This document shows positions 58,338-58,392 of a DNA stretch of 64,000 bases, in pieces. The stretch's first letter is position 1; each line of letters starts with the position of its first letter. The position numbers and the translations under genes are program-made. The notes below the pieces were generated by a model. That model was not told where the DNA came from and ran no database searches. It saw nothing but the letters and a program-made list of their open reading frames with translations. The DNA is from Leptothrix sp. (in: b-proteobacteria) (lineage in GTDB: Bacteria > Pseudomonadota > Gammaproteobacteria > Burkholderiales > Burkholderiaceae_C). Where the stretch lies: assembly GCA_041083665.1 (NCBI GenBank), contig JBFPGZ010000013.1, forward strand, positions 3,740-67,739, in the 5' to 3' direction.

Positions 58338-58392
58338 GCACGTAGTCGGACACACGGTAGTGATGCCGGCCGAAGCCACTTCGGCGTCATGG
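58338..58392 (-). pseudogene. phnM-derived remnant: two short segments of phnM fused, with the intervening sequence deleted
   Basis: 58338-58352 'ggcacgtagtcggac' is identical to phnM 59227-59241. 58352-58391 matches phnM 59870-59909 at 39 of 40 positions and encodes the 'HDAEVASAGITT' fragment of PhnM. Confidence 0.6.

What the first reader, a model, noticed from the sequence alone, without database searches (positions are those of the whole stretch)
58338..58392. Fused phnM fragments (15 bp plus 40 bp) lying 620 bp outside the intact phnM: a rearrangement scar at the island border
Two non-adjacent pieces of phnM coding sequence reappear back-to-back immediately after the FN3 gene. One is 59227-59241, which matches exactly. 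The other is 59870-59909, matching at 39 of 40 positions. They are in the same orientation as phnM, so roughly 625 bp of intervening phnM sequence are missing. This is the footprint of a former second phnM copy, or of a displaced phnM 3' portion later eroded by deletion. It marks where the TA-carrying element recombined with the phn operon. The 40-bp near-identical direct repeat (58352-58391 and 59870-59909) could still mediate deletion of the TA module together with the phnM 3' end.
Basis: seen in the sequence. Interest (0 to 1): 0.6.

Follow-up and report, generated by a model that had tools for sequence, protein, structure and literature searches.

The report
Eroded phnM duplicate beside toxin-antitoxin genes
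A 59-base patch made of two pieces of the phosphonate gene phnM is the decayed leftover of an old extra phnM copy, sitting at a spot where these bacteria repeatedly swap in foreign DNA; it is real but an ordinary kind of genomic scar.

Summary
Window 58333-58351 (19 nt) and 58352-58391 (40 nt) are two collinear, same-orientation pieces of phnM (59230-59248 and 59868-59907).

The scar is not a product of the adjacent island. Seven metagenome contigs from close relatives (L081-L086, L098) lack the 27.4-kb adhesin island. They still carry the same 40-mer fused to the same toxin-antitoxin (TA) upstream DNA. In them the 40-mer is joined to a different phnM piece, near the 3' end.

So an ancestor had a long partial (possibly complete) second phnM copy upstream of the TA module, and two lineages then eroded it by different internal deletions. 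More distant relatives have neither TA nor scar: phnM sits 60-200 bp from a convergent HD-domain gene. That gap is a recombination hotspot holding three different cargos.

In the window the low-GC island (30938-58332) was later inserted flush against the remnant; its right junction is exactly 58332|58333.

How the duplicate arose is unresolved: 3'-end displacement by one-sided homologous recombination, or tandem duplication.

No function is indicated for the scar. It is a new instance of a known kind, of low to moderate interest.

The parts
58333..58351 (-). Scar piece A: 19-nt phnM fragment (codons ~304-310 of phnM, sense on the minus strand)
   Evidence: The 15-nt core is exact against 59234-59248. 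The full 19 nt is 19/19 against phnM of L081 and L087, and 18/19 against the resident phnM. Chance frequency for a 15-mer is 3e-5.
58352..58391 (-). Scar piece B: 40-nt phnM fragment (codons 84-97, HDAEVASAGITTV), containing the hairpin GCCGAAG-CCA-CTTCGGC
   Evidence: 39/40 against 59868-59907 (codons). Also present upstream of the TA module in L081-L086 and L098. phnM of more distant relatives matches only 28-35/40.
59230..59248 (-). Site in the intact phnM that corresponds to piece A
59868..59907 (-). Site in the intact phnM that corresponds to piece B; direct repeat partner 1,516 bp from the scar copy
59014..60156 (-). Intact phnM (380 aa; alpha-D-ribose 1-methylphosphonate 5-triphosphate diphosphatase)
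   Evidence: Full-length ORF. 100% coverage of 380-aa homologues at 97% and 94% identity. Pfam Amidohydro_1/3. Identical to NCBI MEX8518638.1, a Leptothrix sp. MAG.
58392..58419 (+). 28 nt of unknown origin between the scar and the TA promoter. It begins at junction J3 (58391|58392), which is shared with relatives.
   Evidence: Conserved in the L081-type contigs. Not conserved in other genomic contexts of this TA family, where homology starts only at the -35 box.
58420..58448 (+). TA promoter-like site TTGCCA-17-TACACT, overlapping the 16-bp palindrome GTATCCCATGGGATAC (58430-58445; probable operator)
   Evidence: conserved across TA contexts
58454..58627 (+). Truncated toxin gene (57 codons then a stop; Gp49/HigB-like), lacking 119 bp relative to relatives
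   Evidence: The intact 97-aa L081 toxin hits PF05973 Gp49.
58634..58951 (+). Intact antitoxin (105 aa, PF21716 dnstrm_HI1420 / HTH)
   Evidence: The identical protein is found on six metagenome contigs next to phnM. Equals NCBI MEX8518637.1.
57684..58331 (+). FN3-domain gene, the last gene of the island; its stop codon lies 1 nt before the scar
   Evidence: Homologues are all 214-216 aa, so the ORF is complete. L099 homology ends at 58332.
30938..58332 (.). 27.4-kb low-GC island: SPFH protein, LuxR-type response regulator, TpsB transporter, 7007-aa TpsA-like adhesin and FN3 protein. No integrase or transposase is among the ORFs scanned with Pfam; the 7007-aa ORF was not scanned and is called TpsA-like from its position beside the TpsB gene.
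   Evidence: Absent between phnM and the HD gene in all relatives. Pfam results. GC 0.51-0.66 against 0.67-0.71 in the flanks. Left junction, right junction.
30399..30955 (+). HD-domain gene 'D', the ancestral convergent neighbour of phnM. Its last ~6 codons are replaced from 30938 onward.

Best explanation
The 59-nt patch (58333-58391) is the eroded remnant of a second phnM copy. That copy was at least the 3' ~820 bp up to codon 84, and possibly the whole gene.

Proposed sequence of events:
1. In a common ancestor of this Leptothrix-like lineage and of the L081-type lineage, a second phnM copy came to lie just upstream of a HigB/HigA-like TA module. The TA module sits between phnM and its convergent neighbour, an HD-domain gene.
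2. The extra copy was non-functional and decayed by internal deletions at short near-repeats. These deletions differed between lineages.
   - The window lineage lost 59249-59867. The junction lies in the near-repeat GTCGGAC/GTCGAAC.
   - The L081-type lineage lost about 59128-59868. The junction lies in CACGGTCGTG/CACGGTGGTG.
3. The same gap is a recombination hotspot. In the window a 27.4-kb foreign adhesin island was later inserted. This removed the end of the HD gene on one side. On the other side it removed everything left of phnM position 59230, leaving the island flush against the remnant.

What is shown and what is inferred:
- Shown: the three junctions, the sharing of one junction with island-free relatives, the alternative deletion, and the hotspot.
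- Inferred: the existence and length of the ancestral copy, and the order of events.

Origin of the duplicate (inferred, unresolved): I marginally prefer 3'-end displacement. In that model incoming DNA carrying 'TA + phnM' recombined homologously in phnM/phnL on one side and illegitimately at phnM position 59907/8 on the other. This is homology-facilitated illegitimate recombination (HFIR), and it pushes the resident phnM 3' part downstream. A local tandem duplication of [TA-phnM'] gives the same topology.

The scar itself has no indicated function.
For: - The matches are far beyond chance and are collinear.
- Seven independent contigs from other samples and assemblers (L081-L086, L098) lack the island but carry piece B fused to identical TA-upstream DNA. 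Window 58353-58626 equals L081 9601-9874 at 97.4%.
- In those contigs piece B is preceded by a different phnM piece. L081 9571-9610 matches its own phnM at 10449-10490, equivalent to window 59086-59127. The core is the 17-mer CGCGATGCGGCCACGGT. The chance frequency of the 11 nt beyond the overlap is about 1.7e-3.
- The order A' < A < B in phnM is kept in both scars.
- Piece A is 19/19 to clade phnM, and piece B is 39-40/40 only within the window/L081/L087 clade, against 28-35/40 in relatives whose PhnM is at most ~80% identical. The source was therefore a phnM of this clade.
- Relatives with PhnM at most ~80% identical show phnM followed after 60-200 bp by the HD/phnCDE-like genes, which correspond to window 30934->27622. 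They have no TA.
- L087 (94% PhnM) has a third cargo and no TA.
- The island's right end is fixed at 58332 by L099. Its left end lies inside the HD gene's last codons. The island has low GC.
- Mosaic divergence is confined to phnM between L081 and L087, which are otherwise 100% identical. This shows recombination breakpoints in and at the ends of phnM.
- Decay is visible elsewhere in the same patch: a 119-bp deletion truncates the toxin gene.
- HFIR and C-terminal displacement that leave orphaned 3' fragments are documented mechanisms (PMC5361080; PMC3240628).
Against: - No lineage with a long, uneroded phnM' copy was found, so the ancestral copy is inferred from two short, different remnants.
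- The L081-type left piece is short and partly degenerate. A local alignment that excludes the overlap scored 29, against a shuffle maximum of 30.
- Junctions J1 and J2 are seen only in this one metagenome-assembled contig.
- There is no abrupt change in divergence at 59907/8 in the functional phnM that would mark a donor/recipient switch. The region is mosaic throughout.
- Other genomic contexts of this TA family show no duplicated fragment of a neighbouring gene. Displacement is therefore not a general habit of this TA family.
Confidence: 0.78

Rival explanations
1. One reading: the scar was created when the TA-carrying island recombined with the phn operon. The TA module is the island's terminal cargo, and the scar is the island's integration footprint.
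For: The scar does sit exactly at the island's right end. Island insertion removed adjacent DNA on both sides, so the left junction J1 is an island-made joint.
Against: The TA module, piece B and junction J3 occur at 97.4% identity in seven island-free contigs, next to other cargo. The TA region is therefore resident DNA that predates the island. No integrase, transposase or flanking repeats of the island were found.
Confidence: 0.08
2. Same eroded duplicate, but with a purely local origin. A spontaneous tandem duplication of the segment [~58392 or 58398 .. 59907 or 60232] (TA plus part or all of phnM) occurred within one genome. Deletions then removed the left TA copy and most of the left phnM copy, stabilising the structure.
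For: Tandem duplication gives exactly the topology phnM'-TA-phnM. The scar pieces are near-identical to the clade's own phnM. A 19/21 match spans J3: 58377-58397 against phnL 60212-60232. This hints that the duplicated segment may have reached into phnL, making the left copy a complete phnM.
Against: It needs several further deletions, including loss of a whole second TA copy, of which no trace remains in either lineage. The phnL match is marginal: a 12-mer with chance ~0.2 in the window, and E 0.002 in a small search space. It does not explain how the TA module arrived in the first place.
Confidence: 0.35
3. Templated 'filler' patches. Short stretches of nearby phnM were copied by template switching during repair or replication at a break, independently in each lineage, with no long second copy ever existing.
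For: The pieces are short (19, 40 and ~30-40 nt). They come from within 1.5 kb. Their junctions lie at near-repeats.
Against: It needs at least two or three independent switches into the same gene, in collinear order and the same orientation, in both lineages. One patch and its right junction would also have to be inherited while the left patches differ. Erosion of one copy is more economical.
Confidence: 0.07
4. Assembly artefact: chimeric joins in a metagenome-assembled contig at a repeated k-mer.
For: The window matches a MAG contig. J1 and J2 are seen only here.
Against: J3 is reproduced in seven contigs from JGI and Logan assemblies. J1 and J2 share no k-mer of assembler length with their supposed partners; there are only 6/7-nt near-repeats, so graph mis-joins are not expected there.
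Confidence: 0.03

Closest known systems
C-terminal (3'-end) displacement with orphaned fragments, as in rhs, CDI and T6SS effector-immunity arrays, attributed to homology-facilitated illegitimate recombination (Kirchberger 2017, PMC5361080; Jackson 2009, PMC2935791; de Vries & Wackernagel 2002, PMC122324)
   Same: The geometry is the same. An intact gene is followed by a small two-gene addiction-type module. After that comes a fragment of the same gene's 3' part, which starts with a stretch homologous to the point of exchange. One-sided homology plus an illegitimate joint explains both.
   Different: The gene here is a metabolic C-P lyase pathway gene, not a polymorphic toxin. There is a single, heavily eroded fragment rather than an array of orphan modules. 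No selective benefit of retention is apparent. Displacement is only one of two equally workable origins.
Chromosomal hotspots of horizontal gene transfer between conserved core genes (Oliveira, Touchon & Rocha 2017, PMC5635113)
   Same: The same interval between two conserved convergent genes (the HD gene and phnM) holds different cargo in close relatives: 27.4 kb, 9.3 kb, 2.5 kb or nothing. There is no integrase, and the flanks are recombination mosaics.
   Different: Only a handful of genomes and contigs were compared here. Hotspot status is shown qualitatively, not statistically.
Tandem duplication followed by junction remodelling through deletions (established bacterial genetics, from my own knowledge)
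   Same: A partial direct repeat of a gene flanks a short unique segment. Deletions occur at short near-repeats.
   Different: No second copy of the intervening TA segment survives. The duplication joint cannot be verified.
attL/attR direct repeats of integrase-driven genomic islands
   Same: A direct repeat of part of a chromosomal gene lies at the edge of an island.
   Different: The repeat brackets only the TA module plus the phnM 3' end, not the island. It comes from the middle of the gene (codons 84-97). No integrase was found, and the other island end has no copy.

Membership tests
Gene remnant (eroded partial duplicate) of phnM | Sequence identity to the parent gene well beyond chance | tested here: met
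   40-mer at 39/40 and 19-mer at 18/19 (19/19 to clade phnM). 0 matches in 100 shuffles. 15-mer chance frequency 3e-5.
Gene remnant (eroded partial duplicate) of phnM | Fragments collinear with, and in the same orientation as, the parent gene | tested here: met
   A (59230-48) precedes B (59868-907) on the same strand. In L081 A' (~59086-127) precedes B.
Gene remnant (eroded partial duplicate) of phnM | Orthologous remnant in relatives showing a different state of erosion | tested here: met
   L081-L086 and L098 have the same B and the same right junction but a different left piece.
Gene remnant (eroded partial duplicate) of phnM | A relative retaining the long, uneroded copy | tested here: not met
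   None found. Two metagenome scans gave 0 hits. The contigs found through the antitoxin look-up and the PhnM cluster member P0256 are all L081-type.
HFIR / 3'-end displacement product | Displaced 3' fragment lies beyond the newly acquired module, and the gene upstream is intact | tested here: met
   In phnM sense the order is: intact phnM, TA module, phnM' fragment starting at codon 84.
HFIR / 3'-end displacement product | Switch from recipient-type to donor-type sequence in the functional gene at the illegitimate joint | tested here: inconclusive
   phnM is mosaic among window, L081 and L087, with no distinct break at 59907/8. The remnants are too short to type.
HFIR / 3'-end displacement product | Donor context with the TA module already adjacent to phnM | tested here: not met
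   Other contexts of the TA family (L088-L097) are unrelated to phn genes.
att sites of an integrase-mobilised island | Tyrosine or serine recombinase gene in the element | tested here: not met
   Island ORFs scanned are SPFH, LuxR-type regulator, TpsB and FN3; the 7007-aa adhesin ORF was not scanned with Pfam.
att sites of an integrase-mobilised island | Direct repeats at both ends of the element | tested here: not met
   The 40-mer and 15-mer occur only at 58.3 kb and inside phnM, with none near 30.9 kb.
Transposon/IS target-site duplication | Short duplication flanking an element that has terminal inverted repeats and a transposase | tested here: not met
   The repeat is 40 bp. It brackets the TA module plus 854 bp of phnM. 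There is no transposase.
Dispersed repeat (REP-like) or low-complexity sequence | Many copies across the genome | tested here: not met
   Exactly two copies in 64 kb. The only extra copies in related loci are the orthologous scar and phnM itself.
Type II TA module, Gp49(HigB-like)/dnstrm_HI1420(HigA-like) | Adjacent small toxin and HTH antitoxin genes with family-specific domains | tested here: met
   Antitoxin PF21716 at 1e-28. The intact L081 toxin hits PF05973 at 5e-7.
Type II TA module, Gp49(HigB-like)/dnstrm_HI1420(HigA-like) | Intact toxin gene in the window | tested here: not met
   The window toxin stops after 57 codons because of a 119-bp deletion.

The most novel reading that the evidence does not exclude
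The chromosomal TA cassette spread into this locus by 3'-end displacement. It entered attached to a replacement copy of the neighbouring gene's 3' portion, so that the host gene stays intact while the old 3' part is pushed aside. This is the mechanism known for polymorphic-toxin tips, here acting on a housekeeping metabolic operon. If general, it would offer an integrase-free route by which TA modules colonise the 3' ends of core genes. A weaker variant is that the retained hairpin-containing 40-mer is kept because it serves the TA module, for example as a barrier to read-through.
Probability: 0.12. Interest if true: 0.5.

Novelty: new member of a known kind. Interest (0 to 1): 0.2.

Why it matters
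The scar dates events at a horizontal-transfer hotspot. The TA module and a phnM duplicate came first, the adhesin island later, and the island is not what carries the TA module.

It is a clean small example of independent, near-repeat-mediated erosion of one duplicate in two lineages.

Practically, it warns annotators that the TA pair here is decaying, with a truncated toxin. It also shows that a 40-bp direct repeat brackets the TA module plus the phnM 3' end. A rare deletion between the repeats would knock out phosphonate use.

It does not reveal a new kind of element or mechanism.

Tried and rejected
- **Metagenome scans.** Two exact-pattern scans of metagenome contigs found nothing: the junction 21-mer and the phnM 30-mer. 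That collection evidently lacks the relevant samples.
- **Exact-protein look-ups.** Nothing was on record for the window's PhnM, FN3 and PhnL, nor for P0255 and P0258.
- **Genome scan.** The genome-contig scan with PhnM returned no relative closer than 79% aa. The window's own species is absent there.
- **Plasmid search.** A search with the scar plus TA region gave only ~68% antitoxin matches in Ralstonia megaplasmids, with no sign of a plasmid-borne source.
- **Functional RNA or terminator.** Rejected. The fold z-score is -0.17, and no terminator-like site lies in the scar.
- **att-site or IS footprint.** Rejected. There is no recombinase, and the repeats are not at the island ends.
- **General habit of the TA family.** I tested whether duplication of a neighbouring-gene fragment is typical of this TA family. 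It was not seen in the L088-L097 contexts.
- **Donor/recipient break in phnM.** I looked for one at 59907/8 and found only diffuse mosaicism.
- **Origin of the 28 nt at 58392-58419.** I looked in the window, L081, L087 and L001. The only hit was a 12-mer spanning J3 that matches phnL, which is marginal.

Full report

Yes, with corrected coordinates.
Shifting by a few bases recovers the claim.
- Piece B is 58352-58391 (ACACGGTAGTGATGCCGGCCGAAGCCACTTCGGCGTCATG). It equals 59868-59907 at 39/40.
- The 15-mer GGCACGTAGTCGGAC at 58337-58351 equals 59234-59248 exactly.
- Each sequence occurs only twice in the window. Shuffles give 0.00 expected matches even with mismatches allowed.
- Only 2 of 62,654 other window positions carry a 15-mer that also occurs in the phnM 3' part.
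- Compared with phnM of close relatives, the left piece grows to 19 nt (58333-58351) at 19/19. The window's resident phnM carries a derived G at 59233.
- The A at 58359 in the scar is likewise derived, because the orthologous scar in relatives has G.
- The two pieces are collinear direct repeats of phnM. The intervening 619 bp (59249-59867) is missing.
- The scar ends 622 bp from the phnM stop codon.
- phnM itself (59014-60156, minus strand, 380 aa) is intact and full-length against its homologues.

**2. What surrounds it?**

From left to right:
- A 7007-aa TpsA-like adhesin with its TpsB partner.
- An SPFH protein and a LuxR-type response regulator.
- A 215-aa FN3-domain gene ending at 58331.
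- The 59-nt scar.
- 28 nt of unknown origin.
- A sigma-70-like promoter overlapping a perfect 16-bp palindrome.
- A toxin gene that stops after 57 codons.
- An intact 105-aa antitoxin, PF21716.
- 62 nt of spacer.
- The convergent phnM, followed by phnL, K, J and I.

The exact PhnM and antitoxin sequences are NCBI MEX8518638.1 and MEX8518637.1, from a Leptothrix sp. MAG contig of 111,939 bp. This identifies the window's source.

**3. Comparative evidence**

*More distant relatives.* A scan of one genome per species with PhnM found no relative closer than 79% aa.
- In at least nine of those (L001, L003-L008, L017, L024), phnM is followed after only 60-200 bp by DNA homologous to window 30934->27622. 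That DNA is an HD-domain gene plus phosphonate ABC-transporter genes.
- None of L001-L080 carries the TA module.
- So about 28 kb of the window (30.9-59.0 kb) is extra relative to the ancestral arrangement.

*Close relatives with the TA module.* The identical antitoxin occurs on six metagenome contigs, L081-L086. A seventh contig (L098) came from a PhnM variant.
- These contigs are ~93-97% identical to the window.
- Their order is: ABC-transporter cargo, scar, intact 97-aa toxin, antitoxin, phnM, phnL and onward. There is no adhesin island.
- Window 58353-58626 aligns to L081 9601-9874 at 97.4%.
- Piece B and its junction with the TA-upstream DNA (J3, 58391|58392) are therefore inherited and older than the island.

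*A different left piece in those relatives.* In these contigs the sequence left of piece B is not the window's piece A.
- It is a different phnM piece: AAAGTC..CGCGATGCGGCCACGGT, at L081 9571-9610.
- It corresponds to L081's own phnM at 10449-10490, which is window 59086-59127.
- It is fused to B inside the intragenic near-repeat CACGGTCGTG/CACGGTGGTG.
- The 11 nt beyond the overlap have an empirical chance frequency of ~1.7e-3. This piece is weaker evidence than the window's pieces but is in the right order and orientation.

*A third state of the locus.* L087 has PhnM 94% identical to the window's. It has no TA module and no scar, and carries a different 2.5-kb cargo (an unknown ORF plus a porin) between phnM and the HD gene.

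*Source of the scar.* Piece B matches phnM at 39-40/40 only within the window/L081/L087 clade, and at 28-35/40 elsewhere. The scar therefore came from a phnM of this clade, not from a distant donor.

**4. The island junctions**

- An independent FN3 locus (L099, 87% nt identity) is homologous to the window up to exactly 58332, then diverges.
- All FN3 homologues are 214-216 aa, so the gene is complete.
- The right junction J1 is therefore 58332|58333, and the scar is precisely 58333-58391.
- On the left, the window's HD gene departs from L081 and the outgroups at 30937/8, inside its last codons. L081 keeps the ancestral C-terminus.
- The island is 30938-58332 (27,395 bp). Its GC is 0.51-0.66 against 0.67-0.71 in the flanks.
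- No recombinase was found in it, although the 7007-aa ORF was not scanned with Pfam. No copy of the phnM pieces lies at its far end.
- Its arrival deleted resident DNA on both sides.

**5. Best explanation**

An ancestor of the window and L081-type lineages carried a long second copy of phnM immediately upstream of the TA module. That copy ran at least from ~59086 to 59907.
- The copy was dead and decayed.
- The window lineage deleted 59249-59867. The junction lies in the near-repeat GTCGGAC/GTCGAAC, offset by an extra AC.
- The L081-type lineage deleted ~59128-59868.
- The window lineage later received the adhesin island, which removed everything left of 59230.
- The neighbouring toxin gene shows the same kind of decay, a 119-bp deletion.

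How the second copy arose is inferred only. Two routes give the identical topology phnM'-TA-phnM:
- One-sided homologous recombination plus an illegitimate joint (HFIR, also called 3'-end displacement). This is documented for natural transformation and proposed for rhs and T6SS arrays (PMC3240628; PMC5361080).
- A local tandem duplication followed by remodelling.

Three observations bear on this choice, and none settles it:
- L081 and L087 are 100% identical from about window position 60138 rightwards, yet differ at ~60 sites within phnM. L087's last ~70 nt of phnM are replaced. This shows that recombination breakpoints cluster in and at the ends of phnM. There is no clean switch at 59907/8.
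- A 19/21 match spanning J3 to phnL (60212-60232) might mean the duplicate once extended into phnL, which would make it a complete second phnM. The match is statistically marginal.
- Other genomic contexts of this TA family show cassette homology only from the -35 box to ~15 nt past the antitoxin stop. They have no duplicated neighbour fragments.

**6. Function**

Nothing suggests the scar does anything. There is no terminator-like site in it, and the RNA fold z-score is -0.17.

The two 40-mers, with a 32-nt perfect stretch, could in principle recombine. That would delete 1,516 bp (the TA module plus phnM codons 98-380) and destroy phnM. No such variant was seen, and selection for phosphonate use would oppose it.

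**7. Rivals**

- Templated filler patches would need several independent, collinear switches into the same gene in both lineages.
- Assembly chimerism is unlikely. J3 is reproduced in seven contigs, and J1 and J2 share no assembler-length k-mers with their supposed partners. Even so, J1 and J2 rest on a single MAG contig.
- Chance or low complexity is excluded.

**8. Comparison with known systems, and verdict**

The locus behaves as a horizontal-transfer hotspot between conserved core genes (PMC5635113). The scar's geometry parallels C-terminal displacement in polymorphic-toxin loci, but here it involves a metabolic gene and a single eroded fragment.

It is a new instance of a known kind of genomic debris. 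It is useful for ordering events at this locus but is not a new element or mechanism. Interest 0.2.

Noticed in passing
window 58454-58627 (compare L081 9702-9995): The toxin gene of the TA pair is truncated after 57 codons by a 119-bp deletion (L081 9875-9993 is absent). The antitoxin is intact and identical in protein sequence to that of relatives with a full 97-aa toxin. The window therefore carries an orphan antitoxin and a dead toxin.
   Followed up: yes
window 58377-58397 vs 60212-60232 (phnL): CACTTCGGCGTCATGGAAGAT, spanning the scar/TA junction, matches CACTTCCTCGTCATGGAAGAT in phnL at 19/21, in the same orientation. It could mean the ancestral duplicate reached into phnL. It could also be chance: the shared 12-mer has a chance expectation of ~0.2 in the window.
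   Followed up: partly
window 30938-59013; L081 285-9600; L087 10268-12767: The gap between the convergent HD-domain gene and phnM is a hotspot holding three unrelated cargos in close relatives. The window has 27.4 kb of adhesin island. L081 has 9.3 kb: HNH, hydrolase, a sigma-54 two-component system, CMD and an NMT1-type ABC transporter. L087 has 2.5 kb: an unknown ORF plus a porin. More distant relatives have no cargo.
   Followed up: partly
L081 vs L087, window coordinates 59014-63600: L081 and L087 are 100% identical across phnL-phnI but differ at ~60 sites inside phnM in a mosaic pattern. L087's last ~70 nt of phnM are replaced by divergent sequence. This indicates recombination breakpoints at both ends of phnM.
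   Followed up: partly
window 30938-30955: The HD-domain gene's last ~6 codons differ from all relatives (window ...VQHRHTNMV*, against the ancestral ...PDTR.RIGA.DIA*). The island insertion gave the gene a new C-terminus and stop codon.
   Followed up: partly
window 35811-56834 (minus strand): A 7007-aa TpsA-like adhesin ORF lies next to a ShlB/POTRA (TpsB) transporter gene (34120-35814). Its C-terminal part contains three near-identical ~130-aa repeats (SAGAMNA.TVQA.KDVTLVSGAGLTASRVTTSVG...), visible in the translation.
   Followed up: no
window ~57227-57452: Several short (~35-42 nt) related sequences are repeated in the intergenic region upstream of the FN3 gene. The same region of L099 hits four window sites at 81-91% identity.
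   Followed up: no
whole window: The source is identifiable. PhnM and the antitoxin are identical to NCBI MEX8518638.1 and MEX8518637.1, from a Leptothrix sp. MAG contig of 111,939 bp. The species is not represented in the one-genome-per-species collection; the best PhnM match there is 79%.
   Followed up: yes
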